This document shows positions 241 through 58,372 of a stretch of DNA of 64,000 nucleotides, one piece after another. The position numbers and the translations under genes are program-made. Source of the stretch: Candidatus Parcubacteria bacterium (GTDB taxonomy: Bacteria; Patescibacteriota; Saccharimonadia; UBA4664; JBIOIQ01). Where the stretch lies: positions 947,691 through 1,011,690 of the forward strand of contig OY970378.1 in the NCBI GenBank assembly GCA_963718875.1, read 5' to 3'. The notes under the pieces are model-generated. The model did no database searches and was not told the DNA's origin. It worked only from the letters and a program-made list of their open reading frames with translations. Positions within the stretch are counted from its first letter, which is position 1. Each line of letters opens with the position of its first letter.

Positions 241-310
241 TGGTTTTTGAAGTCAGACTTTAATCTTTGGACTTGGGAAATCTCGATTTGAAGTCTGACT
301 TCTGATCTAG
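241..310. repeat. Family-A palindromic element (tttgaagtcagactttaatc ... gatttgaagtctgacttctgatc)
   Basis: Inverted copies of GAAGTCAGACTT/AAGTCTGACTTC; the same unit recurs at 787, 7962, 8604, 15362, 16025 and 41073. Confidence 0.8.
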
Positions 311-630
311 CTGGCGCTGCGGTTTTCAAGCTTGGCAATGCGAAAACCATGGTCTTTGGCATAATCCTTAACCACCACAACGTCGTCTTTGATCTCTGAA
401 AGTTCTTGATGGATCCCGTCTATCAGCATTGTGATCTTCTCAAATTGTTCGTTTACGCCGGTTATAATTGTTTCAACTGCATTATCAATTTTTGAATCAA
501 GCGCATTTAACCTCTGGCCATGCGCAGCGAACCGTGGTTCAACCACCTCGACCACCACAGCTTTAATTTGTTCTAAGTCTTCCTTGGTAAGAGACATTCT
601 TACTCCTTCTTTAGATTTATTGTATCTCAC
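307..630 (-). CDS. Small hypothetical coiled-coil protein; the likely true start is the Met at 597 (MSLTKEDLEQ...), which follows an AAGGAG ribosome-binding site
   Basis: ORF lies between two family-A repeats; the RBS aaggagtaagaATG was read from the sequence; no recognisable domain. Confidence 0.4.
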   Translation of the reverse strand: MRYNKSKEGVRMSLTKEDLEQIKAVVVEVVEPRFAAHGQRLNALDSKIDNAVETIITGVNEQFEKITMLIDGIHQELSEIKDDVVVVKDYAKDHGFRIAKLENRSAS

Positions 631-720
631 CTCTTGTCTCTATCATACCGAACAAAAAGCGAAAGTGCCAGGTTCGGTTAGTCTATCTCGTTCCTCTTCG
701 AACAAGCCTACACATTACCT

Positions 721-778
721 CTGAACTTGTCGAAGGGTCGCAGGGCACGCACATTCCCGGCCTTCGACTACGCTCAGG
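721..778. repeat. Family-C palindromic element (ctgaacttgtcgaagg ... ccttcgactacgctcagg)
   Basis: Inverted repeat; related copies at 5806, 7938, 8576, 33580 (inside alaS), 48866 and 53730. Confidence 0.7.
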
Positions 779-786
779 CCATAATC

Positions 787-857
787 TGGTTTTTTTGAAG
801 TCAGACTTTAATCTTTGATGTTAGGTAACTGTATTTAAAGTCTGGCTTCTAGTCTGG
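787..857. repeat. Family-A palindromic element, directly abutting the family-C copy (composite C+A)
   Basis: tggtttttttgaagtcagactttaatc...aaagtctggcttctagtctgg. Confidence 0.8.
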
Positions 858-1358
858 TTATTTAACGACAAAGTTGACTAGTTTGCGCGGGACGGTAATA
901 GTTTTGACCATTGTTTTACCATCAAGATGCTTTTTGACAGACTCAACCTCCGCAGCGGACTTTTCCAACTCATCCTTGCCCACGTCTACGGCCGCTAGCA
1001 TAGTGCCGCGCAGCTTGCCATTGACCTGGATGGCAATCTCAATGATGTCGTCTTTAATTAACTCTGGATCATATTTGGGCCATGCAGCCACATGTACGCT
1101 CTCGGTTTCGCCCAATGCTTCTTGCCACAGCTCTTCGGCTAAGTGCGGCATGGCTGGAGCTAACATGAGGACTAATGTACGCACAGTTCGTTGCGCCAAT
1201 AAAGCGGCCTCAGGTTGCAAAAGTGATTTACGTATATCCGGCGCGTTCAAGAAGTTTACATATTCCATCAAGCTACTGACCATAGTATTAAAGTGCATAT
1301 CTTGAATATCTTCGTGGACTTTTTTCAAAGTTTTGTGAGTCATACGATCTACTGCCAC
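858..1358 (-). CDS. leuS: Leucyl-tRNA synthetase C-terminal fragment (anticodon-binding and C-terminal domain), separated from the main ORF by a frameshift
   Basis: Ends ...IQVNGKLRG...VPRKLVNFVVK, as bacterial LeuRS C-termini do; starts 2 nt away from the stop of the 840-aa LeuRS ORF but in a different frame. Confidence 0.8.
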   Translation of the reverse strand: MAVDRMTHKTLKKVHEDIQDMHFNTMVSSLMEYVNFLNAPDIRKSLLQPEAALLAQRTVRTLVLMLAPAMPHLAEELWQEALGETESVHVAAWPKYDPELIKDDIIEIAIQVNGKLRGTMLAAVDVGKDELEKSAAEVESVKKHLDGKTMVKTITVPRKLVNFVVK

Positions 1359-1359
1359 C

Positions 1360-3882
1360 TCAATGACCCCCTCGTTCCCACTTGGATTGCGAGGGAGCCT
1401 TGGTTTGGGAGTTTTGAATTAACTTATGCGCCAAGTCCCAAGTACGGTACGTAAAACGCCCTACGCCAGCTAAATGTTCCTCACTCCAGGCCATTTCTTG
1501 ATCATATGGTCCCATAAACATCTCGTACAATCGAAGTATATCTGCTCCATGCGTCGTGATTACGCCGTCTGGATTAATAACATTGCCGCGAGATTTGCTC
1601 ATCTTTTGATTGTCCGGCCCTAAAATCATGCCATGGCTTCGTCTCTTGGCATAAGGCTCGAGAGAGGGCACGAGTTTTTGATCATATAAAAATTTGTGCC
1701 AAAAGCGTGAATACAACAAATGAAGTGTCGTATGCTCCATTCCGCCGTTATAGAGATCAACCATCAACCAGTCTTGTAATTTGGACGTTGAAGCAAAAAC
1801 TTGATCATTGTTGGGGTCAATGTAGCGCAAATAGTACCAGCTAGAGCCAGCCCAGTTGGGCATGGTGTCTGTTTCTCGCTTAGCCGGACCATCACATTGA
1901 GGGCAAACCGTATTAACCCAATCGGTAATTGCCGCCAAGGGGCTTTCACCTGTTTTGGTGGGTTCATAATGTTCAACTTCAGGCAAAGTAAGAGGTAGTT
2001 GATCTTCCGGCACCGGCACGACTCCACACTTGGGACAATGAACCACCGGGATAGGTTCGCCCCAGTAATGCTGGCGACTAAAAATCCAATCGCGCAGTTT
2101 GTACTTGACTGCGTGTTTTGCGGACCCCGCTTTAAACAAATCTTCCACTATGGCTTGCTTTGCTTCGGATCCTAATAAACCGTCGTATTGGCCGGAATTA
2201 ATCAGTTCTCCTTCATCCGTAAGTGCGGTTTCTTTCCATAATTGCTGCCAGACAAATTTTTGGTGGTCAGGTACAAGCCTATCTAAAACTGCTTTTTGTT
2301 CGACCCAAACTAGAGTATGTTGCTTGGATTCGGCGTTGGGAATATTGCCTTGCTGGCTTAGATTGTCAACCTCGGCCATGATCACCATAGTAATGGCCTT
2401 GCGGTTTTGCTGCTTATGCGAGGCGCAGTAACGCGCTCCGGTAACCCAACGTAACTTGCGAACAATATTTATGTCCTGTAAGGCCGCTTCTTCGCGGATC
2501 TCATTTAAGGCGGCAGTTTCAGGTGTTTGCCCGTCTTCAATCCCTCCCATGATGGCAGTAGTTATGCCCTCAAGAGTACCGTGCCAATCAAGCAGGGCAA
2601 ATTTACCAGTGGACTTATCTTTAAGATGGACGATTACCGTGTCCCGAACGACTTCTTCGTACCTGGGTTGAGGTGGATTTTTGGTATCGTCCTCAATAGG
2701 CATGATTACCTGCTTAATTGGTAGGTCAAATTTTTTGGCAAACTCAAAGTCACGCTCATCGTGGGCAGGGACAGCCATAATGGCGCCCGTACCGTAACCC
2801 ATTAAAACGTAGTCGGCGATCCAAACTGGAAGTTCCTCTTTGGTAAGAGGGTTGATCGCCATTGCTCCGGTCCAGACGCCAGTTTTGGGCCGCTCCTGGT
2901 CTTGCCGCATTAACTCTGTCTCGGACTGGACGGTTTTGATATAGCTTTCAGTAACTGATTTTTGACCAGAGGTTGTGATGTCTTTTACTAGTGGATGTTC
3001 AGGCGCCAAGACTAAAAATGTAGCTCCGGCCAATGTGTCGGCACGAGTGGTGAAAACTTCAATATAAGAATTGTCATCCTGAACTCGATTCAGGATCTCT
3101 TGACTTAGTTTAAGAGATTCCGAATCCTGAGCGCTCGCATGGGCATGGTTCGTGCTCGCTTCCGGTCCGGAATGACAGATTGGAAATTTAACCGTCGCCC
3201 CCTCACTTCGACCGATCCAGTTAATTTGTTGCGTGGCCACACGAGGCAAGTAATCGACCGTTTTTAAGTCTTCAATCAGTCTATCAGCATAGGCTGTGAT
3301 TTTGAGTAACCATTGTTTGAGTAATTTTTTTTCGACTTCTGTGCCACAGCGCTCATGACGACCATTAATAACCTCTTCGTTGGCCAACCCAGTCTTACAA
3401 AATGGGCACCAATTAATGGCAATCTCGGCTTGGTAAGCAAGCCCGGCTTTAAGAAGTTGTAAAAAAATCCACTGGGTCCACTTGTAGTACTTAGGGTCAG
3501 TGGTATTAACCTCGCGCGACCAGTCGAAGCTTAGGCCCAAGCTTTTCATTTGGCGACGGAACGTGTCGACATTACGTTCGGTAGCGAGATGAGGGGCAAT
3601 CTTGTTTTTGATTGCATAGTTTTCTGTGGGCAATCCAAAAGCATCCCAGCCCATAGGATAGAGCACATTGAAACCTTGCATACGCTTGTGTCTGGCCATA
3701 ATATCCAGGGCAGTAAAGCTGCGGACATGTCCTACATGCAGCCCATCTCCCGAGGGATAAGGAAATTCTGCCAACAGGTAATATTTGGGCTTAGGATCAA
3801 AATCGACCGCTTGATAAAGCTTAGTGTCCGTCCAAACTTTTTGCCATTTGGGCTCAATTTTGCCTGGTTCGTATGGTTTCAT
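1360..3882 (-). CDS. leuS: Leucyl-tRNA synthetase main body (HVGH ... KMSKS) with an embedded Nudix/MutT-like domain and a repeat-derived insertion
   Basis: HVGHVRS and KMSKSRGN class-I motifs; CP1/editing region (TTRADTLAGATF, AVPAHDERDFEFAKKF); Nudix box GGIEDGQTPETAALNEIREEAAL at about aa 446-468. Confidence 0.9.
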   Translation of the reverse strand: MKPYEPGKIEPKWQKVWTDTKLYQAVDFDPKPKYYLLAEFPYPSGDGLHVGHVRSFTALDIMARHKRMQGFNVLYPMGWDAFGLPTENYAIKNKIAPHLATERNVDTFRRQMKSLGLSFDWSREVNTTDPKYYKWTQWIFLQLLKAGLAYQAEIAINWCPFCKTGLANEEVINGRHERCGTEVEKKLLKQWLLKITAYADRLIEDLKTVDYLPRVATQQINWIGRSEGATVKFPICHSGPEASTNHAHASAQDSESLKLSQEILNRVQDDNSYIEVFTTRADTLAGATFLVLAPEHPLVKDITTSGQKSVTESYIKTVQSETELMRQDQERPKTGVWTGAMAINPLTKEELPVWIADYVLMGYGTGAIMAVPAHDERDFEFAKKFDLPIKQVIMPIEDDTKNPPQPRYEEVVRDTVIVHLKDKSTGKFALLDWHGTLEGITTAIMGGIEDGQTPETAALNEIREEAALQDINIVRKLRWVTGARYCASHKQQNRKAITMVIMAEVDNLSQQGNIPNAESKQHTLVWVEQKAVLDRLVPDHQKFVWQQLWKETALTDEGELINSGQYDGLLGSEAKQAIVEDLFKAGSAKHAVKYKLRDWIFSRQHYWGEPIPVVHCPKCGVVPVPEDQLPLTLPEVEHYEPTKTGESPLAAITDWVNTVCPQCDGPAKRETDTMPNWAGSSWYYLRYIDPNNDQVFASTSKLQDWLMVDLYNGGMEHTTLHLLYSRFWHKFLYDQKLVPSLEPYAKRRSHGMILGPDNQKMSKSRGNVINPDGVITTHGADILRLYEMFMGPYDQEMAWSEEHLAGVGRFTYRTWDLAHKLIQNSQTKAPSQSKWERGGH
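3066..3176. repeat. Family-B/D-like palindromic element inserted in-frame inside leuS
   Basis: ttgtcatcctgaa..ttcaggatc followed by agattccgaatcctgagcgctcgc...cgcttccggtccggaatgac; compare the intergenic B copies ggattccctatccggagcgc...ccgatagggaatgac. It encodes the low-complexity LeuRS segment CHSGPEASTNHAHASAQDSESLKLSQEILNRVQDDNS. Confidence 0.6.
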
Positions 3883-3930
3883 GAGGGTAATTGTACCCTA
3901 GGTAGGCAAAAAGTTCGAGGGCGAGTCCGC

Positions 3931-3969
3931 GATGTCTGACTTCTCTACCCGAGAAGGAAGTCAGACATC
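3931..3969. repeat. Isolated family-A hairpin (gatgtctgacttc / ggaagtcagacatc) between leuS and the high-GC islet
   Basis: 13-bp perfect inverted repeat containing the family-A core gaagtcagac, followed by ttttt. Confidence 0.6.
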
Positions 3970-4107
3970 GAGAACTTTTTTACCGGCAAACAGGAAGTAG
4001 GCAGGTTTGCTTATCCGTGACGGAACTCATGACGCTGAGACACGGTGTACTTTTGAGCTTATTTGTAGTATGGTAATGGTTCGAACCTTCGACAGATTGG
4101 ACGAATC

Positions 4108-4440
4108 ATGACACGTCAAGCAGTAAGGAACAACGACGGGCTTGACCAGATGCTTCACCACGTGGACTGGAGCGCAGCTCACGTCAGCAGGGAAATGCTG
4201 TGCAAGCTGATCGCCGTGGCCCTCGAGAGAGACTCCACTGACTCGGTTATGACCGCAAGCGTAATGCTGGCAATTGTCGCGCCGGTGGAAGGCTGTACAC
4301 CTGCAGATTGGCACGACAACCTCGGTTGGCTGCGCAAGACCCTGGCGATCGAGACGCCAGCACCAACCGGCCGGCACCGGGCGGGCGCGAGTGACGGGAC
4401 CAACCACGATGGCCGCAACGGTTCCTCTTGCGGGCACTAG
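4108..4440 (+). CDS. Hypothetical protein, first gene of a four-gene high-GC plus-strand islet
   Basis: About 60% GC versus about 45% background; the 4428 and 4630 starts have RBSs (aggag, gaggtga); minus-strand ORFs over the same span look like GC artefacts. Confidence 0.35.
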   Translation: MTRQAVRNNDGLDQMLHHVDWSAAHVSREMLCKLIAVALERDSTDSVMTASVMLAIVAPVEGCTPADWHDNLGWLRKTLAIETPAPTGRHRAGASDGTNHDGRNGSSCGH

Positions 4441-4613
4441 CACCAGGAGCTCTGATGGACTCCACTAGAGTTATCATCCCTGCTTGGTTTCCTGCGCCAG
4501 TTGGAGATGTTGACGAGCGGCCAGTTAGACCATCCCAGTGGGCCCCAGAGGTGATGGCTGAAGTGTTAGCCGAGGAGGCCGGAAGCCTCGTTACAACCAT
4601 TCCTCTGCCATGA
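4428..4613 (+). CDS. Hypothetical small protein (likely start MDSTRV at about 4455 after an aggag RBS)
   Basis: High-GC islet; RBS read from the sequence. Confidence 0.3.
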   Translation: MRALAPGALMDSTRVIIPAWFPAPVGDVDERPVRPSQWAPEVMAEVLAEEAGSLVTTIPLP

Positions 4614-4629
4614 CCTACAGAGGTGAGTA

Positions 4630-5715: not shown

Positions 5716-5805
5716 AGCCCAAAGAATCAGCTGACGTAGCAAGACGACCTGGATTAAGAGATCCTGAACAGTATAAACGTCCCGCTGGAGCGGGACTTTC
5801 TCTTC

Positions 5806-5843
5806 CCTTCGACTTTGCTCAGGACCTCTGGCAGGATGACAAT
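5806..5843. repeat. Family-C half-site (cccttcgactttgctcagg) plus the caggatgacaat D-type terminal motif
   Basis: Matches the C copies at 761-778 and 8576-8596, and the D motif at 48993 and 58345. Confidence 0.5.
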
Positions 5844-7851: not shown

Positions 7852-7862
7852 AACAACAACCA

Positions 7863-7917: not shown

Positions 7918-7937
7918 TGATTCTACGCTGGGCAAGG

Positions 7938-8033
7938 CCTTCGACCGACTCAGGCAATGATTGGTTTTTTGAAGTCCAACTTTAATCTTCATGGCTTTTG
8001 GCAATCGGGATTTGAAGTCAGACTTCTGATCAG
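7938..8033. repeat. Composite family-C half-site plus family-A element
   Basis: ccttcgaccgactcaggc followed by tggttttttgaagtccaactttaatc...gatttgaagtcagacttctgatcag. Confidence 0.8.
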
Positions 8034-8575: not shown

Positions 8576-8705
8576 CAGCCTTCGACTATGCTCAGGCAAT
8601 AATTGATTTTTGAAGTCCGACTTTAATCTTAATAGCTTAGCAGTCTCGATTTGAAGTCGGACTTCTGATCTAGGTTTCATTTGAAGTCGGACTTCTGGTC
8701 TGGGT
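8576..8705. repeat. Composite family-C half-site plus an extended family-A element with an extra tandem A arm, abutting the murF stop codon
   Basis: cagccttcgactatgctcagg ... tgatttttgaagtccgactttaatc ... gatttgaagtcggacttctgatctaggtttcatttgaagtcggacttctggtctggg. Confidence 0.8.
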
Positions 8706-10274
8706 TCAGGCGAAGCTATCCGGCCAGTCATTCTGCAGCAACACCACGTCCCCCGCTTTGGTCAGTTTGGGCAACGCCAATAAAGCGCTTATTTCATCGG
8801 CGTAGGTCAACAACTGACCCTTAAAGTCGCCTTCTTTCAAACCAGTTTTGATATATTCCATGACAGACGTTTCAATCAATACCACCACCTCGATACCGGC
8901 CTCTGCGAGCAGGCGCCCAATTGTTTCATGTACTATCTTGGCACGATGGGCAGTTTCGGTGATTCCGGGGGTAACATAAAAGCGTTTGTGTCCCTTTAAG
9001 CTAGCTAAGAAGTTGATTGCTACCCTAGCCCCGTCAGGGTTGCCATTATAGGCATCGTCTATTGTAACCACACCGCTGCCGTCAGTGGATGGCTCCATGC
9101 GGTGTTCAAACGGTTTAGTAGCCGCCAGTCCTTTTTCGATATCGTCCTGCGATAATCCTAAATCTTTCGCTAGTATGGCTACGGCAGCCAATGGCCCAAC
9201 TTGGTGCACTCCTAATAATTGCGACTTAATATGAAGAGTCTCTTTGCCATGCTTCATTTCAAAGTTAGTTCCCTCAAGACCGGTTGAAACTTTGCCTACG
9301 CTCCAGTCGCCAACGCCTTTTGAGCTATAAACTGTGGCTTTGTATTGCTTAGCCCGCTCGGCAGCCAATGAGCTATCGCCGTTAACGTACAGGCTCACAT
9401 TTGTCATCTGACCTTTGACCCCAGATCGAGCCCGGGGCAGGCTATCTGACGCCACGGGCGAAAAACTAGGCTTTGATATCTCAGATTCGGTGCCATCTGG
9501 ATTCAAGGCCTGGTTGGTCTGATTCTGCAGCCAGTCACCCAGCTCATAAATGGTTGAGACTGTGGCGTCAAGTGAACGAAATTTGCTTAGGTGGGCTTCA
9601 TTTATACCGGTAATAACTCCAATATCAGGTTGAACCAAACGGCTGAGCTTAGTAATGTCACCTGGAAAATATTCACCCAGTTCAAAAATTAGGATCTCTT
9701 CGTCGCTTTTTAGGTTTTCGACAAAACGGCTAATCCCTGCCGGCGTGTTTAAATTTCCGGGGGTGGCAGCCACGGCTTTGGCAGTACTCAGTACCGTGAC
9801 TAGCATTTCTTTCATGGTGGTTTTGCCAAAGCTACCTGCAATGGCAATTTTGAAAGCCGGATGATCGGCTAACCGCTTGCTGGTGCGGGCGTCGCGGACC
9901 CTTTCCTGAGGTGTCAAAATGGCAATGCGAGCAATTATGGCCGCCAAGGCTAAACTATATGCCAATAAATAGGGCGCTAAAAGACAAATGATAATTACAG
10001 ACAGCGACCACCAAATTATTAACTTTTGGCTAATGGCAAAATACAGAAGCACCACAATGATGAGCCAAGCCAAGGCAATTTCGAGCCAAACAAACAGCAA
10101 AAAACCTTTGGCGGCGGCCGTCATATCCAGTTTTCGGACGCGGGCTACTTGCTTGAAGTTGCGAGTGCGATGAAACCAACTCAGGTAATCTTGGGGACGG
10201 TACTCACTTTGTTGCAACATGTAAACCAGTGACCTGACAAACTTTAGACTATAGCGGCTAAAAAAATTACGCAT
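8706..10274 (-). CDS. murF: Mur ligase (UDP-MurNAc-tripeptide--D-Ala-D-Ala ligase, MurF-like) with an unusual N-terminal transmembrane extension of about 110 aa
   Basis: AIAGSFGKTTMKEM ATP-binding motif and central/C-terminal Mur ligase domains; the N-terminus has two or three hydrophobic helices (LLFVWLEIALAWLIIVVLLYF..., IIWWSLSVIIICLLAPYLLAYSLALAAII). Confidence 0.8.
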   Translation of the reverse strand: MRNFFSRYSLKFVRSLVYMLQQSEYRPQDYLSWFHRTRNFKQVARVRKLDMTAAAKGFLLFVWLEIALAWLIIVVLLYFAISQKLIIWWSLSVIIICLLAPYLLAYSLALAAIIARIAILTPQERVRDARTSKRLADHPAFKIAIAGSFGKTTMKEMLVTVLSTAKAVAATPGNLNTPAGISRFVENLKSDEEILIFELGEYFPGDITKLSRLVQPDIGVITGINEAHLSKFRSLDATVSTIYELGDWLQNQTNQALNPDGTESEISKPSFSPVASDSLPRARSGVKGQMTNVSLYVNGDSSLAAERAKQYKATVYSSKGVGDWSVGKVSTGLEGTNFEMKHGKETLHIKSQLLGVHQVGPLAAVAILAKDLGLSQDDIEKGLAATKPFEHRMEPSTDGSGVVTIDDAYNGNPDGARVAINFLASLKGHKRFYVTPGITETAHRAKIVHETIGRLLAEAGIEVVVLIETSVMEYIKTGLKEGDFKGQLLTYADEISALLALPKLTKAGDVVLLQNDWPDSFA

Positions 10275-14833: not shown

Positions 14834-16392
14834 TCCATTTCATTAGTACCGATTCTTATAATATCACCTGGCTCGACTCCATGCTTAATAAGCTCTTTGC
14901 CAACGCCTGTTTTGCGCAAAATGTCGCGCATACGCTCCACAGCATCTTGGTTGTCCCAGTCAGTACGACGGCCATGGCCTTCAATGTTGCCGCCCATCAC
15001 CCGCCAAGAGCCATCCGGTTCTTGTTCTAATTTCCATAAATTTGGAAAATCCATTTGGTCAATAACGGCTTTAGGCTCGGCCTCGGCGGCGGCTTTTCGC
15101 GCCTCTCGTGCCACCATCACTAACTGCGCCGTTCGACGTAACAAAACATCGAGACCCCGGTGAGCTACTGCTGATATGGCGAAAATACTAGTCTTGTCAT
15201 CCTCGACAGAAAGGTCACTCTCATCCACATGATTATTGGCCTTGTCGACCGCTTCTGATCGGGGATCCAGTTGACTAGGTTCCCTATCCGGAGCGAGGTT
15301 GTCTAATTTATGGTTAGTCTCGTCTTCCGATAGGGAATGACGTTTGAGGATGGTTTGTTCGTCTGGATTTGAAATCTGACTTCTGGAGATTACCGATGCT
15401 AGTTTTTCCATTTGACTTTTTAATTCCTCAGCCGTAACTGTTTCGATCTTGGTTAGCACTACCAGTTGCGGACGCTGTGTAAGGTCAACACTGTACGAAG
15501 TTAGCTCGTTTATTATAGTCAGGTAGTCGCGTTCAATGTCGTTTGAGTCAACGCTAATAAGGTGTAGTATTACCGCCGTGCGCTCGATGTGCCGTAAAAA
15601 TTCATCACCTAAGCCTTTGCCTTCGCTGGCTCCTTCAATTAGGCCCGGAATATCGGCTACTAAAAAAGTGTTTTGCTCAAAGTCGACGACACCCAGGTTT
15701 GGCACCAAGGTGGTGAACGGGTAGTCGGCTATTTCTGGCTTGGCGTTACTAATGACGGACAGGAGTGTGGACTTTCCCGCGTTTGGCAATCCTACCAGTC
15801 CAACGTCTGCCACTAGTTTAAGCTCCAAGGCAACGCGAAGTTTTTCGCCCGGCTCGCCTTTTTCCGCTAAATGCGGGGTTTGGCGGACGGAAGATATAAA
15901 GTGTGCATTACCAAACCCGCCGCGGCCACCTTTGGCCACAACCACTTGTTGGCCATCGTCGGTAAGATCGGCCAATACCTTAGCATCGTGAGTCGTGATC
16001 GGAGAGTTGTGAGTTGTCCTTCTATCTGGATTAGAAGTCAGACTTACATCTTTGATGCTTGTAGGACCTGGATTAGAAGTCTGACTTCTAGCCTGGGGCA
16101 TTTCATAAATAACTGTACCTACCGGCACTCTAATAATCATGTCCTGACCACTTTTACCTGCCTTGCGGTTGCCACCACCTGGAGCGCCGTCTTCAGCCTC
16201 TACTTTGCGGTTAGTGCGGTATTTGCTTAAAGTATTTTGGTTGTGGCTTGATTCAAATATAATGCTGCCACCACGGCCGCCATCGCCGCCATCGGCTCCG
16301 CCTTTGGCGCGGTATTTTTCGTGACGAAAGCCCATCTTGCCATCGCCGCCTTTGCCCGCCCGTAATTCGATTTCAGCTTTATCAGTAAACAT
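14824..16392 (-). CDS. obg: GTPase Obg/CgtA, expanded to 522 aa by three in-frame repeat-element insertions
   Basis: Obg fold N-terminus (GGDGGRGGSIIFE), G1 motif GLPNAGKSTLL, C-terminal OCT/TGS-like domain; the extra segments map exactly onto the repeat copies at 15251-15387 and 16025-16096. Confidence 0.9.
   Translation of the reverse strand: MFTDKAEIELRAGKGGDGKMGFRHEKYRAKGGADGGDGGRGGSIIFESSHNQNTLSKYRTNRKVEAEDGAPGGGNRKAGKSGQDMIIRVPVGTVIYEMPQARSQTSNPGPTSIKDVSLTSNPDRRTTHNSPITTHDAKVLADLTDDGQQVVVAKGGRGGFGNAHFISSVRQTPHLAEKGEPGEKLRVALELKLVADVGLVGLPNAGKSTLLSVISNAKPEIADYPFTTLVPNLGVVDFEQNTFLVADIPGLIEGASEGKGLGDEFLRHIERTAVILHLISVDSNDIERDYLTIINELTSYSVDLTQRPQLVVLTKIETVTAEELKSQMEKLASVISRSQISNPDEQTILKRHSLSEDETNHKLDNLAPDREPSQLDPRSEAVDKANNHVDESDLSVEDDKTSIFAISAVAHRGLDVLLRRTAQLVMVAREARKAAAEAEPKAVIDQMDFPNLWKLEQEPDGSWRVMGGNIEGHGRRTDWDNQDAVERMRDILRKTGVGKELIKHGVEPGDIIRIGTNEMEWL
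15251..15342. repeat. Family-B element inside obg (gcttctgatcggggatccag ... ggttccctatccggagcg ... ccgatagggaatgacg)
   Basis: Matches the intergenic B copies at 26516, 32388, 34994, 36237 and 51378. Confidence 0.75.
15362..15387. repeat. Family-A half element inside obg (tctggatttgaaatctgacttctgga)
   Basis: A-family core. Confidence 0.6.
16025..16096. repeat. Full family-A element inside obg (tctggattagaagtcagacttacatc...ctggattagaagtctgacttctagcctgg)
   Basis: Encodes the extra Obg segment QARSQTSNPGPTSIKDVSLTSNPDRRTT between GTVIYE and the KGGRGGFGN region. Confidence 0.8.
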
Positions 16393-26456: not shown

Positions 26457-26515
26457 ACGGCGTCGTCCTCAATAGAAAGGCTAGTTTCAAGTTTTATTTT
26501 TTTAAGTGAATTAAC

Positions 26516-26590
26516 CGCTTCTGATCGGAGATCCAGCCGATTTCCTGCCGTGAGCGCTCCTCTCTCGCTTCCGATAGGGAACAATGTGGG
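26516..26590. repeat. Family-B element upstream of ftsA
   Basis: ccgcttctgatcggagatccag...gcgctcctctctcgcttccgatagggaac. Confidence 0.75.
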
Positions 26591-32294: not shown

Positions 32295-32387
32295 CCGCGT
32301 ACTTATGCGGATGCCGTCTAATCAAGGGACGGTGGGCCTCAAGGCCTGCCGTCCCTGACGCTTTTTACAAGTTACCTACTTTATTTC

Positions 32388-32431
32388 TGGATCCCCTATC
32401 CGGAGCGCTATGCTTCCGATAGGGGACGACA
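32388..32431. repeat. Family-B element
   Basis: ctggatcccctatccggagcgctatgcttccgataggggacgac. Confidence 0.8.
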
Positions 32432-32444
32432 AAAATGTGTATTT

Positions 32445-34993: not shown

Positions 34994-35060
34994 GCTGGAT
35001 TCCCTATCCGGAGCACCAAACTAGGCAATGGTGGAGTTTGGCTACCGATAGGGAATGACG
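34994..35060. repeat. Family-B element (alaS-mnmA intergenic)
   Basis: ctggattccctatccggagcaccaaactaggcaatggtggagtttggctaccgatagggaatgacgg. Confidence 0.8.
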
Positions 35061-35133
35061 GATGTTTGTCTTGTGGCTGACGATTGAATAATCTCATGAG
35101 ACTGCTTTATCGCAAACGCTCTTCGCAGCGACG

Positions 35134-36236: not shown

Positions 36237-36345
36237 CCTGGATCCCCTATCCGGAGCGCTCCTGTCTCGCTTCCGATAGGGGATGACAAGGGGGAGGGGT
36301 TGAACCTAGCTTCCAATAAGGGGCGACAGTGGGGAAGGGTTGGCG
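36237..36345. repeat. Family-B element plus a partial second copy
   Basis: ctggatcccctatccggagcgctcctgtctcgcttccgataggggatgacaaggggg... then cttccaataaggggcgacagtggggaaggg. Confidence 0.8.
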
Positions 36346-40596: not shown

Positions 40597-41451
40597 CTCT
40601 GCCGCATTGCGGCTCGTGGCATTCCCGAGAGTATTGAATGATTCCCCTCTTAACTGTGCTAAAAACTCGGCAGTAAATTTAGCATTTGCCGGTTCATTCA
40701 CTTTTCCTCGTCTTGGCACTGGGGTTAAAAACGGGCAGTCTGTTTCTAGTACTAGGTTCTGTAACGGAACAGCTTTTGCAGCTGCCAGCTGTACCTCGTC
40801 CTTGGTAAAAGTCATGATGCCATTAAGCGCTATGAGGAAACCCCGCTCAACAGCTTTTTTCATATTAGCCGTTGTGCTGCTAAAACAGTGTACTATGCCA
40901 CGCAGTCCTGGATACTCGTCCACAATTCTAAAAAAATCATCAAAAGCATCGTCGCCTGTGCCTGCGGCTATCGATGGAGCTGAGGGTCGTACATGCCACA
41001 CCATCGGTTTATTGTACTCCAGGGCAAGTTCAATTTGAATTCGAAAAGCCTGCTCCTGCCATTGGCGGGTGGCAGAAGTCAAACTTTTGATCTTAGTCTG
41101 TGGGTAATCTGGATTTGAAGTCTGACTTTGATCTGGTCGGCCCTTCTCTAGTCGATAATAGTCTAAACCGCACTCACCAATTGCAACCACCTTAGGATAT
41201 GATAATAGCCTCCTAAAGGTTACTGGCCAGGTAGCATTATTTGCAATGCTTGCGTCTTCGGGGTGTAAGCCTACTGTGGCATAAACTTCTTGGTATTTGT
41301 TGGTTACCTCCACAGCTTCAACACTATCAGCCTCGTTCGTGCCCACGTTCACGATTACATTAATGCCAGCAACATGAGCATTCTCTACTACTTCATCAAT
41401 CCGGTTTTTAAGCCCTTCATGGTGCAGATGGGCGTGAGTGTCGATCAACAA
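40576..41451 (-). CDS. tatD: TatD-family metal-dependent DNase, with an in-frame family-A insertion
   Basis: MLIDTHAHL, IGECGLDYY and hydrolase motifs; extra segment KGRPDQSQTSNPDYPQTKIKSLTSA. Confidence 0.85.
   Translation of the reverse strand: MLIDTHAHLHHEGLKNRIDEVVENAHVAGINVIVNVGTNEADSVEAVEVTNKYQEVYATVGLHPEDASIANNATWPVTFRRLLSYPKVVAIGECGLDYYRLEKGRPDQSQTSNPDYPQTKIKSLTSATRQWQEQAFRIQIELALEYNKPMVWHVRPSAPSIAAGTGDDAFDDFFRIVDEYPGLRGIVHCFSSTTANMKKAVERGFLIALNGIMTFTKDEVQLAAAKAVPLQNLVLETDCPFLTPVPRRGKVNEPANAKFTAEFLAQLRGESFNTLGNATSRNAAELFGIKV
41073..41137. repeat. Family-A element inside tatD
   Basis: gaagtcaaacttttgatcttagtctgtgggtaatctggatttgaagtctgactttgatctgg. Confidence 0.8.
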
Positions 41452-44995: not shown

Positions 44996-45008
44996 CCCAG
45001 CCCAACCA

Positions 45009-45066
45009 TGTCATTCCCTATAGGAAGTGCCGCTACTGCGAAACGCTCCTGATAGGGAATCCAGGG
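45009..45066. repeat. Family-B element in inverted orientation
   Basis: tgtcattccctataggaagtgccgctactgcgaaacgctcctgatagggaatccagg. Confidence 0.75.
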
Positions 45067-48865: not shown

Positions 48866-49090
48866 CCCTGAGCTTGTCGAAGGGTCGGACCGGCTTTGCC
48901 TCTCTTAGTATGATAACGATGAAAACTTAGGGTTTAAGAGGTGCTGAACAGTAGGAGCGGCCATGCTCCGCGGCGCATCTGGTGACTCAATACTGGCCTT
49001 CCTCTTCAGTATGACGATTAGAATATTTGGTTCAACAAAAGTTGGTGGATCCTGAAATAAATTCAGGATGACAAACAAGGGGGGAGGCGA
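48866..49090. repeat. Repeat cluster: family-C half-site (48866-48888), family-D element (48993-49019), atcctgaa..ttcaggatgacaaacaagggggg element (49049-49090)
   Basis: ccctgagcttgtcgaagggtcgg; ctggccttcctcttcagtatgacgat (compare 58345-58372); compare 3068-3098 and 36286-36300. Confidence 0.65.
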
Positions 49091-51114: not shown

Positions 51115-51377
51115 AAAAGCTGATCCGAGAGTGGCGGCAATTATGCCGCCGACGATTATTAACTTTGCCTTAGTGTTAGCGTGCCTCCAGGCAGCTAATC
51201 GAATCCGAATAAATGTACTTAAAATAGAAGCCTCTATGGTTATCTGTGGGGCTTTTATGTTAAGTTTGTGTTTTTTGACTAGTAAAGTTTAACGTACTTA
51301 TGCTTAAGTACAGTTTTTATTGTATATCGACAGATTTGGTCTGTCAAATTGAGTGAGTTTTATCGCTTATTTTCTTT

Positions 51378-51445
51378 CTGGATTCCCTATCCTGAGCGCC
51401 AAGCTAGGCAATAGTTGAGCTTGTCTTTCCGGTAGGGAATGACAA
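51378..51445. repeat. Family-B element
   Basis: ctggattccctatcctgagcgccaagctaggcaatagttgagcttgtctttccggtagggaatgacaag. Confidence 0.8.
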
Positions 51446-51499
51446 GTAAAGGTTCGGGATTTAAGGCTCAGATTTTGATCATAAACGTTTTCGGGTCTG

Positions 51500-53729: not shown

Positions 53730-53750
53730 CTTGAGCGTAGTCGAAGGGTT
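53730..53750. repeat. Family-C half-site (cttgagcgtagtcgaaggg)
   Basis: Matches cctgagcgtagtcgaagg (the reverse complement of 761-778). Confidence 0.5.
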
Positions 53751-55571: not shown

Positions 55572-56729
55572 TTAAGCTTGCAGCGCTTCCAGGCCCGGCA
55601 TCGGTTTCCCGGCCATTAATTCAAGACTGGCTCCTCCACCAGTAGAAACAAAGCTAAACTTATCGTGCCAGCCCATGCCGTCAACATAATCGGCAGTGTC
55701 TCCACCCCCAATAATACTAAAGGCTCCTGATGCAAATATTCCTTCGGCCAAGCGTTTGGAGCCCATGCTGAATTGCTCCACTTCGGTAATCCCAAGCGGT
55801 CCGTTCCAAATTACTGTTCCTCCATCAATGGTAGCGAGGGCTGTGTCAATTGTTTCCGGGCCAAGGTCCACAATGTAATCATCCTTTGTCACGGCCGTAA
55901 CTGCCACCATCTTAGCCTCACCGGTTTCGTCGATGGTTTTAGACACAACAACATCCGTAGGTAAAATTATATTCATACCATGGCTGTCGGCCGTATCAAG
56001 CACATTTTGCGCCACCTGCTTTTCTGCTGGCTCATACAAACTTTTACCTATGGGGGTTCCTAGACTGGCCAGAAATGTGTTGGCCATTTCGCCGCCTATG
56101 AGCAGGTGATCAACTTTGGCAAGCAGGTTGTGGATAACGTCAATCTTGGTGGCAATTTTGGCTCCCCCTATGACTGCCAGTACCGGCCGCTTAGGATTTT
56201 CCATGGCCTTAGTGATGGTTTCGACTTCTAGTAGCACTTGGAGTCCGGCAGCGCTGGGTAGTATTTTGGGAATTCCCACCATTGATGCGTGAGCTCGGTG
56301 CATGGTAGTAAAGTCGTCGTCTACATAGACGTCTCCAAGGCTAGCCAGCAAATGGGCAAAACCTTCATCGTTAGCTTCTTCCTCGGGGTGAAAGCGGAGG
56401 TTTTCTAGCATAACCACCGACCCATTGGGGGCAGACTGAATAGTTTCGATGACGGTTGGCCCCACACAGTCGGGCACAAACGTGACTGGCTGGTTGAGCA
56501 GGGCGGCCAGAGCTTGAGCTACTGGGGCAAGACTTTGCCCCTCGTGACTGTGATGGCTCATTAGTACAACTTTGGCGTCATGCTCTAAGAGGTACTTAAT
56601 AGTCGGAACAGCCGCCTTAAGCCGCAAATCATCATCAACTTTTCCGTCTTCGATAGGGACATTGAGCGAGGCCCGGAGAAGAACAGTTTTATGTTTTACA
56701 TGGAGATCTTGGAGGGTTTTGAGTTTCAT
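55572..56729 (-). CDS. pgk: Phosphoglycerate kinase
   Basis: 385 aa; N- and C-terminal PGK domains (VIGGAKIATKIDVI..., GGGDTA). Confidence 0.9.
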   Translation of the reverse strand: MKLKTLQDLHVKHKTVLLRASLNVPIEDGKVDDDLRLKAAVPTIKYLLEHDAKVVLMSHHSHEGQSLAPVAQALAALLNQPVTFVPDCVGPTVIETIQSAPNGSVVMLENLRFHPEEEANDEGFAHLLASLGDVYVDDDFTTMHRAHASMVGIPKILPSAAGLQVLLEVETITKAMENPKRPVLAVIGGAKIATKIDVIHNLLAKVDHLLIGGEMANTFLASLGTPIGKSLYEPAEKQVAQNVLDTADSHGMNIILPTDVVVSKTIDETGEAKMVAVTAVTKDDYIVDLGPETIDTALATIDGGTVIWNGPLGITEVEQFSMGSKRLAEGIFASGAFSIIGGGDTADYVDGMGWHDKFSFVSTGGGASLELMAGKPMPGLEALQA

Positions 56730-56767
56730 ATTAACTACAGTGTAACGGAAAACGATGGCGATTAAAA

Positions 56768-56810
56768 ACGAAGAACCCCCGGTGACGCCTAAGCGTCGGG
56801 CCGGGGGTTT
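56768..56810 (-). terminator. GC-rich hairpin plus T-run on the minus strand, downstream of the high-GC membrane ORF
   Basis: Minus-strand reading: cccccggcccgacgc-ttag-gcgtcaccggggg followed by ttcttcgttttt. Confidence 0.45.
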
Positions 56811-56828
56811 TCGTGTTCGATCGATGGA

Positions 56829-57251
56829 TCAGCTGAAGATGAGGGGCGAGATGGCCCAGAAGAAGGTGATGGTGCCGAGCATGGTGAAGATGATGACACC
56901 CCAGATGGTCCTCCAGCTGTCGTCCTTGGTGAAGAGGCGTGCGTGGAGGTAGACGCCCATGGTCGCGAACGCGACCAGGGCCTGAACCGCGTCGTAGGGG
57001 TGGGACGATCCGAGCTGGTCGCTCATGATCCGCGATGCGATCAGGATCGCGTTGACCGCGATCAGCGTGGCACGAACCGACCTTGATGCACGAATGTCCT
57101 GGTCGGCTTCTTGAGTGGGCGAAAGCATCATGACGCATCCTCCTTGGGGAGCGTAGAGTTTGATCAGGTTTTCGATGAACACGAACGACAACAGGCTGTT
57201 TTCCTCCATTCCGTTTTGAATCAGGACAGTCAACCCGTAGAGTGTCATCAT
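56829..57251 (-). CDS. Hypothetical small membrane protein in a roughly 65% GC islet (probable true start at the internal Met near 57135)
   Basis: Three hydrophobic helices; GC drops sharply upstream of about 57135; divergent from and abutting the IS30 transposase start. Confidence 0.35.
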   Translation of the reverse strand: MMTLYGLTVLIQNGMEENSLLSFVFIENLIKLYAPQGGCVMMLSPTQEADQDIRASRSVRATLIAVNAILIASRIMSDQLGSSHPYDAVQALVAFATMGVYLHARLFTKDDSWRTIWGVIIFTMLGTITFFWAISPLIFS

Positions 57252-58229
57252 GGTAAAAGCTACTAAACTAACATCGGCAGAGCGTTCGGAAATAGAAATT
57301 CTTTTAAATAAAGGTCACACTCTTAGGGCCATTGGTCGGGCTTTGGGCCGGAGCCCCAATACCATCAGTGATGAGGTGAAGCGTAATAAGACCCCGGAAG
57401 GCTACAATGCCCGCATCGCCAAACAAAAAGCCTACGTCAAACGCAAGTATGCCAAGTACCAGGGCAAGAAGATCCAGGAGAATGATGATTTGCGCTGGTA
57501 CATCATTGTGCGCCTCATGGATGGCTGGAATCCCGATGAGATAGCGGGACGACTAAAAAAAGATCAGCACGGTTACTATGCCTCTAAGACAGCCATCTAC
57601 GAATGGCTCGACAGCGCCAGAGGGCAGAAGTACTGTGACTACCTGCCCTCCCGTAGGTACAGACCAAAGAAGCGCAAACCAAAGACCGATCGGGTGATGA
57701 TTCCAGATCGGGTGAGTATTACAGAGCGCCCCCATGAAGCTACCGTCCGGAGCGAAGTGGGCCACTATGAGGGGGATACCATCGTTAGCGGCAAGCGGAC
57801 TGGATCAAAAGCAGCAATCGTAGTGATTCAGGAACGAGTCACCAGACTGATTGCTGCTAGACCCATCCCAGACTTGTGTCCGGTGAGCTTTAATGGAGCC
57901 ATCAGCTCTTCCAAACTGGTCTTGCTCTCATCAGCAGTCTGACTCTCGACAACGGTATCGAGAACCGTTGGCACAGATTGCTCGATATGCTCGTTTTTTT
58001 CTGTGACCCCTATTCTAGCTGGCAAAAAGGAGGGGTGGAAAACGCCAACCGAATGATTCGGCACTACTTGCCCAAAGGCATGGATCTAGCCACCGTGACG
58101 AACAAAGAATTGCAGCGTATCATTACGATCATAAACAACAAACCCAGGAAGATCCTGGGATATATGTCCGCTATTGAAATGGCTAAAGAGAAAGGAGTTT
58201 TACGAGAGACTGTCCTGATTGAGGGGTGA
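57250..58229 (+). mobile_element. Degenerate IS30-family transposase gene, internally deleted and split into two ORFs (57250..57942 and 57978..58229)
   Basis: N-terminal HTH (LLNKGHTLRAIGRALGRSPNTISDEV), first DDE aspartate region HYEGDTIV, then a C-terminal FFCDPYSSWQKGGVENANRMIRHYLPKG; the central roughly 100 aa carrying the second Asp are missing. Confidence 0.7.
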
Positions 58230-58344
58230 ATTCAGGACTGTTTATCGTGTATTATACTAGCATAAGTAGTTTAAAATGTCAATAGTTTATCAAGGTATCT
58301 ACTCACACCCCTTCTAACAAATCCGCTCACTCACGATTTGCATT

Positions 58345-58372
58345 CTGGCCTTCCTCTTCAGGATGACAATCG
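58345..58372. repeat. Family-D element (ctggccttcctcttcaggatgacaatcg)
   Basis: Near-identical to 48993-49019. Confidence 0.7.

What the first reader, a model, noticed from the sequence alone, without database searches (positions are those of the whole stretch)
241..58372. At least four interrelated short palindromic element families (A-D) with composite architecture
Family A has the core ttgaagtcagactt...aagtctgacttc (copies at 241, 787, 3931, 7962, 8604, 15362, 16025, 41073). Family B is ggattccctatccggagcgc...ccgatagggaatgac (3115, 15251, 26516, 32388, 34994, 36237, 45009 inverted, 51378). Family C is ctgagcgtagtcgaagg / ccttcgactacgctcagg (721, 5806, 7938, 8576, 33580, 48866, 53730). Family D is ctggccttcctcttcagRatgacRat (48993, 58345), sharing the caggatgacaa terminal motif with B, 5828 and 49049. 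C is repeatedly found immediately 5' of A (721/787, 7938/7962, 8576/8604), which suggests composite units. All are hairpin-forming and 30-100 bp, which is MITE/REP-like. This density, several copies per 10 kb, is unusual for a reduced genome.
Basis: seen in the sequence. Interest (0 to 1): 0.65.

Follow-up and report, generated by a model that had tools for sequence, protein, structure and literature searches.

The report
REP/REPIN-like palindromic repeats invading genes
A small (about 1.2 Mb) Saccharibacteria-like genome carries several related families of hairpin-forming REP-type repeats, one of which matches the repeats that flank IS200-like (RAYT) transposase genes in other bacteria, and several copies sit in frame inside essential genes such as obg, leuS and alaS.

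Summary
All four families occur at the stated coordinates, far above chance, and they fold as hairpins.

**Family A** is a REPIN-like doublet of the 13-bp palindrome GAAGTC-N-GACTTC.
- The same doublet is widespread in metagenomes.
- In 13 of 120 metagenome loci, and in a Candidatus Kaiserbacteria genome, the palindrome flanks a Y1/HUH transposase gene (RAYT, Pfam Y1_Tnp). This is a REPtron layout.

- tag YGTC, a stem starting with AT, and a CCA(G) tail;
- head-to-head dimers.
- B is a long-stem variant with compensatory stem changes.

**Family C** is a CCTGAGC-N3-GTCGAAGG module. It occurs alone, as inverted pairs, or fused to A through a conserved junction.

Elements lie in frame inside Obg (two sites), LeuRS, AlaRS, TatD and probably MurF. 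They sit exactly where homologues show insertions, and in Obg the AlphaFold model is disordered there. This resembles Rickettsia RPEs.

**Limits and verdict.**
- A syntenic relative has no such repeat families.
- The window holds no transposase, and the rest of the source genome could not be read.
- Verdict: a new member of a known kind, of moderate interest.

The parts
242..310 (+). Family A REPIN: two GAAGTCNGACTTC-type palindromes 41 nt apart. Its right end, CTAG, supplies the TAG stop of the minus-strand ORF 307-630. It lies just after a plus-strand terminator-like hairpin at 190-226.
   Evidence: (z -4.3)
721..779 (+). Family C inverted pair: CTGAACTTGTCGAAGG, loop, CCTTCGACTACGCTCAGG. 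It is joined to the next A element through the conserved junction.
792..857 (+). Family A REPIN with core spacing 40. It abuts the stop codon (858-860) of the LeuRS C-terminal ORF.
   Evidence: (z -4.9)
3072..3096 (+). Short canonical CGTC-type REP (family E): TGTC-ATCCTGAA-CTCGA-TTCAGGAT. It lies inside LeuRS and forms a head-to-head dimer with B at 3115-3179.
3115..3179 (+). Family B copy inside LeuRS. It lies within the 37-aa insertion (aa 236-272) seen relative to T. thermophilus LeuRS.
3931..3969 (.). A-related variant hairpin upstream of the LeuRS start: GATGTCTGACTTC, 13 nt, GAAGTCAGACATC.
5805..5843 (+). Family C unit followed by the CAGGATGACAA tag end.
7936..8033 (+). Composite unit: C (7936-7955) plus an A REPIN (7964-8033, core spacing 43). 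It lies directly after a minus-strand terminator-like hairpin at 8073-8047.
8577..8703 (+). Composite unit: C (8577-8597) plus A with three palindrome units (spacings 41 and 30). It abuts the TGA stop (8706-8708) of the MurF-like gene.
9396..9518 (-). Probable degenerate composite insertion of 41 aa in the MurF-like protein. It is absent from the L007 orthologue. The DNA keeps ...CTTGAATCCAGAT... and ...TCAGATGACAA motifs.
   Evidence: inference; weak
15194..15385 (+). Obg insertion site 2 (aa about 335-400): a head-to-head dimer of B (15194-15270 inverted, 15274-15343) plus a half A unit (15360-15385). All are in frame.
   Evidence: pLDDT below 50 for residues 341-400
16029..16096 (+). Obg insertion site 1 (aa about 100-122): an A REPIN with core spacing 42, read as RSQTSN...SLTSN.
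   Evidence: (pLDDT below 50 for residues 102-133)
26514..26587 (+). Degenerate B half plus a B copy, upstream of the FtsA-like gene.
   Evidence: (D14, D15)
32386..32432 (+). Family B copy with a short apical part, 13 nt downstream of the stop of the NUDIX gene. It carries the compensated stem variant ATCCCC/GGGGAT.
33583..33685 (-). Inverted pair of C units, each carrying an internal insert. It lies in frame in AlaRS, within the 34-aa insertion (aa 408-441) seen relative to solved AlaRS structures.
34994..35061 (+). Family B copy between the AlaRS and MnmA genes.
   Evidence: z -3.6
36238..36329 (+). Family B copy (36238-36289) plus a partial second right arm (36298-36329).
41068..41134 (+). 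A REPIN in frame in TatD (aa about 106-128, within the insertion at aa 101-129). Core spacing 42, read as QSQTSN...KSLTSA.
45008..45064 (-). Family B copy in the opposite orientation: TGTC-ATTCCCTATAGGAAG...CTGATAGGGAAT-CCAG reads on the plus strand.
48867..48884 (-). Family C unit (CTGAGCTTGTCGAAGGG).
48993..49073 (+). D copy (48993-49017), followed 32 nt later by a short canonical REP, family E (49049-49073; on the minus strand TGTC-ATCCTGAA-TTTAT-TTCAGGAT-CCAC).
   Evidence: z -4.1
51377..51446 (+). Family B copy between the G5/SLT-domain gene and PcrA.
53731..53748 (-). Family C unit just upstream of the PcrA start.
58345..58369 (+). D copy. Its reverse complement reads TGTC-ATCCTGAAGAGGAAGG-CCAG.

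Best explanation
These are REP-type, non-autonomous, hairpin-forming repeats that multiplied in this lineage of a small, probably Saccharimonadia (Patescibacteria/CPR) genome.

**Family A** is a REPIN: two copies of the palindrome GAAGTC-N-GACTTC form a hairpin of 60-70 nt. It most likely spreads through a RAYT, a domesticated IS200-like Y1/HUH transposase. Such enzymes recognise the REP hairpin on single-stranded DNA and cut and rejoin it. The RAYT would act in trans from one or a few genes elsewhere in the genome.

**Families B, D and E** belong to the CGTC/TGTC-tagged REP superfamily, whose mobilising enzyme is unknown. B is a long-stem derivative.

**Family C** is an associated module that travels alone, as inverted pairs, or fused to A.

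**Where copies survive.** Copies persist where they do little harm: just after stop codons and terminators, and in frame in permissive surface loops or linkers of proteins, where they are translated as disordered peptides. This is the Rickettsia RPE situation.

**Shown here:**
- repeat families, hairpins and stem covariation;
- in-frame position at insertion sites;
- RAYT association of the A core in other genomes.

**Inferred:**
- a RAYT exists in this genome and moved these copies;
- the inserted peptides are actually made.
For: **Repeats and hairpins.**
- Repeat counts are far above shuffles.
- A and B fold as DNA hairpins with z -2.9 to -4.9.
- On the 15-pair B stem, 88% of cells are paired, 4 pairs and 9 cells show compensatory change, and 0 of 500 shuffles reach this.

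**RAYT link for family A.**
- Clustering the ORFs of those loci gave one dominant family of about 235 aa in 13 loci, with Pfam Y1_Tnp and the HUH motif NHFHLL.
- In 11 of the 13, a core palindrome lies within 21 nt of the ORF or inside it. In the six loci whose core positions I inspected it lies at both ends of the ORF.
- In a Candidatus Kaiserbacteria contig, the RAYT gene 10001-10708 is flanked by AAGCGAAGTCAGACTTCGCTAG and CTAGCGAAGTCTGACTTCACTAG.
- The named homologues of this RAYT family are mostly Patescibacteria.

**CGTC-type signature for B, D and E.**
- B, D and E carry the YGTC tag, an AT-start stem and a CCA(G) tail, and they form head-to-head dimers. These match the published definition (PMC3733652).
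- Canonical TGTC-ATTCCCGC-GAAA-GCGGGAAT-CCAG REPs occur in two of the same metagenome contigs as the A doublets.

**Intragenic copies.**
- They coincide with insertions relative to homologues: Obg, LeuRS, TatD, AlaRS and MurF.
- The Obg insertions are predicted to be disordered.
- Both intragenic REPINs have a core spacing of 42, a multiple of 3, while the intergenic ones have 40, 41, 41 and 43. All three intragenic A copies use the same stop-free frame.

**Presence and absence among relatives.**
- B is at Obg site 2 in the window and in L006, but not in L005.
- Syntenic L007 has no repeat families.
Against: - No RAYT or other transposase lies in the 64-kb window. The rest of the source genome could not be read, so a cognate enzyme in this organism is unproven.
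- No close relative (above 67% Obg identity) was available. Exact element boundaries, empty sites and recent movement could not be shown.
- The copies are 65-95% alike, so many may be old and immobile.
- A lacks the GTAG tag of classical REPs.
- For B to E, no mobilising enzyme is known for any CGTC REP (PMC3733652).
- The spacing and frame argument rests on only two intragenic REPINs.
Confidence: 0.72

Rival explanations
1. The elements are selected RNA structures: transcription terminators, 3' stabilisers against exonucleases, or sRNA sources. On this reading they were kept for function rather than spread by transposition.
For: - Most intergenic copies lie between co-directional or convergent genes.
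- They abut stop codons (307, 858, 8706) or sit a few nt after them (32445).
- Nearly all share one orientation relative to the minus-strand genes.
- REPs in other bacteria are thought to act this way (PMC3733652).
Against: - None of the elements in 1-20000, the only part of the window scanned, is followed by a T run, and none was picked up by the terminator scan there. Genuine terminator-like hairpins lie next to two A copies.
- Copies inside Obg, LeuRS, AlaRS and TatD cannot act as terminators.
- Function as RNA does not explain the RAYT association.
- The two readings are not exclusive. Co-option after spread is possible.
Confidence: 0.15
2. The palindromes are binding sites for a DNA-binding protein (a regulator, a nucleoid protein, gyrase or IHF as at E. 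coli BIMEs) or are DNA-uptake sequences of a naturally competent CPR bacterium.
For: - GAAGTC-N-GACTTC is a perfect 6-N-6 dyad, like an operator.
- The doublets sit about four helical turns apart.
- The core is conserved across many unrelated metagenome contigs while the flanks vary.
Against: - There are only about 8 loci in 64 kb, far below uptake-sequence densities.
- Copies lie inside coding regions.
- The protein that recurs next to the palindrome is a Y1 transposase, not a regulator.
- Syntenic relatives lack the sites altogether.
Confidence: 0.06
3. They are classical MITEs, that is, deletion derivatives of a DDE-transposase insertion sequence with terminal inverted repeats and target-site duplications.
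For: - Their size is 30-100 bp and they are palindromic.
- An HTH_38 protein lies at 57250-57942, about 400 nt from a D copy. Its helix-turn-helix domain is the kind found at the N-terminus of IS30 transposases.
Against: - No DDE domain was found in the window.
- No inverted D copy lies on the other side of the HTH_38 gene.
- No target-site duplications are evident in the flanks.
- The A core is tied to Y1 transposases instead.
Confidence: 0.05

Closest known systems
REPIN-RAYT systems (REP doublets forming hairpins, with REP-associated tyrosine transposases; Bertels & Rainey, PMC3116915, PMC3337134, PMC5581495). The nearest subclass may be TnpA_REP 2.4 of Quentin et al. (PMC6006769).
   Same: - Family A is an inverted doublet of a short palindrome that forms one long hairpin.
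- It has many dispersed copies, mostly extragenic and near the 3' ends of genes.
- The same palindrome flanks single Y1/HUH transposase genes in other genomes.
- Those RAYT genes have the NH[F]H motif and carry REP copies inside their own coding sequence (L036, L102, L120). That trait is reported for subclass 2.4.
   Different: - There is no GTAG tag.
- The host is a CPR bacterium with a genome of about 1.2 Mb.
- Three of the eight A loci are intragenic.
- No cognate RAYT has been seen in this genome.
CGTC-tagged REP superfamily (Di Nocera et al. 2013, PMC3733652), which includes Neisseria dRS3 and Rickettsia RPE-4 and RPE-6.
   Same: - B, D and E have the terminal CGTC/TGTC tag, a stem beginning with AT and a CCA(G) tail.
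- They form head-to-head dimers, occur inside genes, and have no adjacent transposase.
- E (ATCCTGAA / TTCAGGAT, loop 5) fits the canonical 8-9 bp stem and 4-5 nt loop.
   Different: - B has a basal stem of about 15-16 bp plus a variable apical segment of 3-35 nt that often pairs further. It is 47-70 nt long instead of about 30.
- This phylum is not among the five reported to carry CGTC REPs.
Rickettsia palindromic elements (RPE) inserted in frame in protein-coding genes.
   Same: - Palindromic repeats sit in frame in housekeeping genes of a reduced genome.
- They lie at sites that tolerate extra loops.
- They include tRNA synthetase genes, as reported for intragenic REPs generally.
   Different: - The host phylum is different.
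- Sequence similarity to RPE-1 and its relatives was not tested.
- Here several families, A, B, C and E, all contribute insertions.

Membership tests
REPIN-RAYT system (family A) | A short, imperfectly palindromic REP present in many dispersed copies | tested here: met
   Seventeen core matches with up to 2 substitutions fall at 8 A loci (one further match, at 33455, lies outside any element). Chance expectation for the 14-mer is 0.64.
REPIN-RAYT system (family A) | REPs arranged as inverted doublets separated by a spacer, folding into one hairpin (REPIN) | tested here: met
   Six doublets have core spacings of 40-43. They fold with 12-15 bp stems and z -3.8 to -4.9.
REPIN-RAYT system (family A) | A cognate RAYT (Y1/HUH transposase) gene flanked by the same REP | tested here: inconclusive
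   Met in other genomes: 13 of 120 metagenome loci, and Candidatus Kaiserbacteria L129. Absent from the window. The other roughly 95% of the source genome could not be read.
REPIN-RAYT system (family A) | A conserved GTAG tetranucleotide at one end of the REP | tested here: not met
   Window copies have TTTG, TTAG or TCAG. Among 597 core flanks in the metagenome loci, GTAG accounts for only 29.
CGTC-tagged REP superfamily (B, D, E) | An unpaired terminal CGTC (or TGTC/CCTC) tag | tested here: met
   Nine of ten aligned B copies have CGTC or TGTC. D and E read TGTC.
CGTC-tagged REP superfamily (B, D, E) | A stem beginning with A-T and T-A pairs, and an unpaired CCA tail | tested here: met
   The first pair is AU in 7 of 10 and GU in 2 of 10. 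The second pair is UA in 10 of 10. The tail is CCAG in 7 of 10.
CGTC-tagged REP superfamily (B, D, E) | A stem of 8-9 bp and a loop of 4-5 nt | tested here: not met
   Met for E (3072-3096 and 49049-49073: 8 bp stem, 5 nt loop). Not met for B, which has about 15 pairs plus a 3-35 nt apical part. B is therefore a variant, not a canonical member.
CGTC-tagged REP superfamily (B, D, E) | Predominantly head-to-head dimers | tested here: met
   There are two head-to-head dimers with tags on the outside: Obg site 2 (B with B) and LeuRS (B with E). The other B copies are singletons, so this feature has limited support.
Rickettsia palindromic elements (RPE) | A palindromic repeat inserted in frame in protein-coding genes, leaving the ORF intact | tested here: met
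   Obg (twice), LeuRS, AlaRS and TatD. Each lies at an insertion relative to homologues.
Rickettsia palindromic elements (RPE) | Sequence homology to the RPE families of Rickettsia | not tested
The only link is through the CGTC tag, since RPE-4 and RPE-6 are classed as CGTC REPs in PMC3733652.
MITE (DDE-type) | Terminal inverted repeats matching a parent insertion sequence, and target-site duplications | tested here: inconclusive
   No DDE transposase is present in the window. No duplications are visible in the flanks. No empty sites from close relatives were available to fix the boundaries.
Intrinsic terminator | A G+C-rich hairpin followed directly by a T run | tested here: not met
   None of the A, B or C elements in 1-20000 appears among the terminator-like sites. 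A has its T run before the hairpin on the plus strand, which becomes an A run after it on the minus strand.

The most novel reading that the evidence does not exclude
The same RAYT machinery that moves the A REPINs may also move the CGTC/TGTC-tagged families (B to E) in this lineage.

**Hints:**
- A, B and D share the CTGG terminus.
- The C-to-A junction is conserved in three composite copies.
- B and A lie side by side in Obg.
- Canonical CGTC REPs co-occur with A doublets in metagenome contigs L037 and L061.

If true, this would name the long-missing enzyme for CGTC REPs, including Neisseria dRS3 and Rickettsia RPE-4 and RPE-6. It would also make a tiny, now genetically tractable group of bacteria a test bed for the question.
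Probability: 0.1. Interest if true: 0.75.

Novelty: new member of a known kind. Interest (0 to 1): 0.5.

Why it matters
REP/REPIN elements and in-frame palindromic insertions are known from Proteobacteria, Cyanobacteria, Rickettsia and a few other groups. My literature searches found no description of them in Saccharibacteria or other CPR bacteria.

What the window shows:
- A genome of about 1.2 Mb devotes roughly 2% of this window to at least five related hairpin families.
- The repeats have added 20-70 residue disordered segments to essential proteins: Obg, LeuRS, AlaRS, TatD and probably MurF.
- A syntenic relative has no such repeat families.

Practical consequences:
- It gives a concrete source for the lineage-specific insertions often seen in CPR proteins.
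- It warns annotators that some 'hypothetical' peptides and length differences between orthologues are repeat-derived.
- GAAGTC-N-GACTTC is a convenient marker for one large RAYT family that is common in groundwater and sediment metagenomes.

Tried and rejected
- **Genome scan for B.** I scanned the species-representative genomes with the B 19-mer CTGGATYCCCTATCCGGAG. There were only four isolated hits. The one I inspected lies inside an rplJ-like coding sequence and looks like chance.
- **Finding the source genome.**
  - An exact look-up of the Ddl protein found nothing.
  - The look-up of the window's Obg found a 1,189,924-bp NCBI contig and a Logan contig, but returned no DNA.
- **Looking for the source genome's RAYT.** I ran a profile search with the metagenomic RAYTs and looked for a hit whose contig length is 1,189,924. 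None was among the 120 hits listed, out of at least 7,929.
- **Families A and C in relatives.** No matches to A or C were found in relatives' loci L005-L008 at the mismatch levels tried. L007 Obg does carry a C-like pair that is too divergent for the pattern.
- **GTAG tag for A.** It is not enriched enough to count.
- **Terminator reading.** The scan of 1-20000 does not pick up the elements.
- **Rfam.** Only two tRNAs reach the gathering threshold.
- **Target-site duplications and exact ends.** These could not be determined, because the nearest Obg relative is only 67% identical.
- **Strand bias relative to replication.** I did not pursue this. GC skew in the window is weak, and most genes are on one strand, so transcription and replication cannot be separated.

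Full report
**Source and setting.** The window has 46-55% G+C and is densely packed with housekeeping genes, mostly on the minus strand. They include LeuRS, Ddl, a MurF-like ligase, Obg, GuaA, a short AlaRS, MnmA, TatD, MetRS, PcrA, glycolytic enzymes and others. The window's Obg is identical to a database protein whose longest contig is 1,189,924 bp. The nearest named homologues, at 50-63% identity, are Candidatus Saccharimonadia and Saccharimonadales. The source is therefore probably a small TM7/Patescibacteria genome.

**Checking the observation.**
- Each family motif is far above chance: A 19 matches against 0.64 expected, B 7 against 0.36, C 4 against 0.03, D 2 against 0.
- Representative A and B copies fold as single strands far better than shuffles, with z -2.9 to -4.9. 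C pairs fold only marginally better.
- On ten aligned B copies, a 15-pair basal stem is paired in 88% of cells. Four pairs and nine cells change on both sides, for example ATTCCC/GGGAAT to ATCCCC/GGGGAT. No shuffle out of 500 reaches this, and slid registers collapse to 25-56% paired.
- The C-then-A adjacency is real, with a conserved junction in three copies.

**Anatomy of family A.**
- A is a doublet of the 13-bp palindrome GAAGTC-N-GACTTC.
- The consensus is roughly CTGG-TTTTTGAAGTCNGACTTTAATCTT, a loop, then ATCTSGATTTGAAGTCNGACTTCTGATCT.
- Because each unit is itself palindromic, the two units are both direct and inverted repeats. Together they form a stem of 12-15 bp.
- This is the REPIN layout: REP doublets forming hairpins (PMC3337134, PMC3116915).
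- Intergenic copies hug gene ends. The element's CTAG supplies the stop of ORF 307-630, and two others abut the stops at 858 and 8706. Two lie directly after terminator-like hairpins, at 190-226 and at 8073-8047.

**Anatomy of families B, D, E and C.**
- Read on the minus strand, B is YGTC-ATTCCCTATCGGAAGC, then 3-35 nt, then GCGCTCCGGATAGGGAAT-CCAG.
- Di Nocera et al. define CGTC REPs by four features: a terminal CGTC (often TGTC), stems that almost always begin with AT, a CCA tail, and head-to-head dimers. They include Neisseria dRS3 and Rickettsia RPE-4 and RPE-6, and they note that no dedicated transposase is known (PMC3733652).
- B matches the tag, the AT start, the tail and the dimers. 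Its stem is about twice as long, and its apex is variable.
- A tag-anchored hairpin search found 16 sites against about 4 in Markov controls.
- C (CCTGAGC-N3-GTCGAAGG) shares CCTGAGC with the inner arm of B. At 5805-5843 it is followed by the tag end. It occurs singly, as inverted pairs (721-779 and 33583-33685), and fused to A.
- Canonical TGTC-ATTCCCGC-GAAA-GCGGGAAT-CCAG REPs were found in metagenome contigs L037 and L061, with the same termini as B.

- *Obg length.* The window's Obg is 522 aa, against about 420 aa in relatives. Alignment shows two insertion sites.
- *Obg site 1.* It holds an A REPIN read as PQARSQTSNPGPTSIKDVSLTSNP.
- *Obg site 2.* It holds a half A unit plus a head-to-head B dimer.
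- *Obg model.* An AlphaFold model gives pLDDT below 50 and no secondary structure for residues 102-133 and 341-400, while the conserved domains fold (the alignment was shallow and mean pLDDT is 66.8).
- *Obg relatives.* L006 (67% identical) keeps one B at site 2, and L005 has none. L007 has a C-like pair at site 2 and heptamer tandem repeats at site 1. These loops therefore accept different inserts repeatedly.
- *LeuRS.* The insertion at aa 236-272, relative to T. thermophilus LeuRS, is B plus a small hairpin plus E.
- *TatD.* The insertion at aa 101-129 is an A REPIN.
- *AlaRS.* The insertion at aa 408-441 is an inverted C pair.
- *MurF.* A 41-aa insertion relative to L007 looks like a decayed composite.
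- *Frame and spacing.* All three intragenic A copies use the frame that reads (R/Q)SQ(T/I)SNP. Both intragenic REPINs have a core spacing of 42, a multiple of three. The intergenic ones have 40, 41, 41 and 43. The sample is small, but this is what a filter for stop-free copies would produce.

**Who moves them.**
- The window has no Y1 or DDE transposase. I scanned all ORFs of 100 aa or more, plus some shorter ones, against Pfam or NCBIfam, and ran tblastn and a RAYT profile on the six-frame translation.
By my own rough estimate, chance would give about one hit.
- The palindrome core is constant while the flanks and spacers vary.
- All-against-all clustering of the 679 ORFs in those loci gave one dominant family: 13 loci, about 235 aa, Pfam Y1_Tnp, HUH motif NHFHLL.
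- In 11 of the 13, a core palindrome lies within 21 nt of the ORF or inside it. In the six loci whose core positions I inspected it lies at both ends. This is the REPtron layout of RAYT genes.
- A profile of these proteins finds at least 7,929 homologues. The named ones include Candidatus Kaiserbacteria, Candidatus Taylorbacteria and 'Patescibacteria group'.
- In the Kaiserbacteria contig, the RAYT gene is bracketed by GAAGTCAGACTTC and GAAGTCTGACTTC. Two other members are bracketed by different palindromes, as expected if REP and RAYT co-evolve.
- Some of these RAYT genes carry in-frame REPs themselves, a trait reported for TnpA_REP subclass 2.4.
- Twenty-three of 127 metagenomic doublets lie inside long ORFs, including LeuRS and MetRS homologues.
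- The link between the A core and RAYTs is therefore well supported in general. Whether this particular genome has the enzyme is untested.

**Lineage specificity.**
- The B 19-mer is essentially absent from 185,579 species-representative genomes.
- Relatives' loci L005-L008 lack A.
- L007 is syntenic with the window across GuaA to MurF. It has no repeat families and has shorter orthologues of Obg and MurF.
- The expansion is therefore recent on the scale of this clade.

**Rivals.**
- The elements are not intrinsic terminators.
- A role as RNA stabilisers after spread is possible but untested.
- A regulator-site or uptake-sequence reading does not fit the intragenic copies, the low density, or the transposase association.
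- A DDE-type MITE reading has no support beyond an HTH_38-only protein near one D copy.

**Comparison and verdict.**
- A behaves like, and probably is, a REPIN of a RAYT family that is common in Patescibacteria, but it lacks the classical GTAG tag.
- E and D are CGTC-type REPs. B is a long-stem variant of that superfamily. C is an associated module.
- The in-frame insertions parallel Rickettsia RPEs.
- I found no paper describing REP/RAYT or RPE-like elements in Saccharibacteria or other CPR bacteria. I therefore rate this a new member of a known kind, of moderate interest.

Noticed in passing
window 858-3882 (minus strand), break at about 1360-1421: LeuRS is split into an 840-aa ORF and a 166-aa ORF that carries the anticodon-binding domain. 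The two are in different frames, and both frames are open across 1360-1421. That stretch contains a run of five G. This could be an assembly indel, a pseudogene or a genuinely split enzyme.
   Followed up: partly
window 2232-2652 (minus strand; LeuRS aa 411-550): LeuRS carries a 140-aa insertion relative to T. thermophilus LeuRS. It contains a Nudix-box-like motif (GGIEDGQTPETAALNEIREEAAL). It is not repeat-derived and looks like a domain inserted into the synthetase.
   Followed up: no
window 25056-25185, 43106-43135, 51656-51676; L007 10313-10392; L005 Obg site 1: There are heptanucleotide tandem repeats: CAAGAAA, CAACTTC, TGTATCT, TCATTAT and TGTGAGT. In relatives, heptamer arrays (GAGTCAA x4, AGCTACC x4, GGTCAAA-like) sit in frame in the same Obg loop where the window has an A element. 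They recall cyanobacterial STRR repeats.
   Followed up: partly
window 62958-63009 and 63678-63729: A 52-nt direct repeat (85% identical) brackets the WhiB-domain gene at 62998-63663.
   Followed up: no
window 14226-14519 and 12223-12326: Near-identical duplications of 104 nt (98% identical) and 37 nt lie next to the two tRNA genes. They include copies of tRNA 3'-end-like sequence (TGGTGGAGC...). These may be tRNA gene remnants or an integration scar.
   Followed up: no
window 57250-57942 (plus strand): A 230-aa protein has only an HTH_38 domain, the helix-turn-helix found at the N-terminus of IS30 transposases. It has no DDE domain. A D copy lies about 400 nt downstream.
   Followed up: partly
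window 4928-4974 and 5660-5701: Two long terminator-like hairpins share CCCCACCAAAACA / TTTTGGTGGGG.
   Followed up: no
L036 2549-3310, L102 1007-1813, L120 904-1674 (metagenome loci): RAYT genes of the GAAGTCNGACTTC family themselves contain in-frame copies of the palindrome, translated as EVGLP, EVRLP or KSDF.
   Followed up: partly
L032 3004-3044 and L087 1099-1139 (metagenome loci): Doublets of the same palindrome lie inside a LeuRS homologue and a MetRS homologue of unrelated organisms. Aminoacyl-tRNA synthetases therefore seem to be recurrent hosts.
   Followed up: partly
window 32325-32360 (minus strand): A CGTC-tagged hairpin with an 8-bp stem that does not start with AT (CGTC-AGGGACGG...CCGTCCCT). 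It lies directly beside the B copy at 32386.
   Followed up: no
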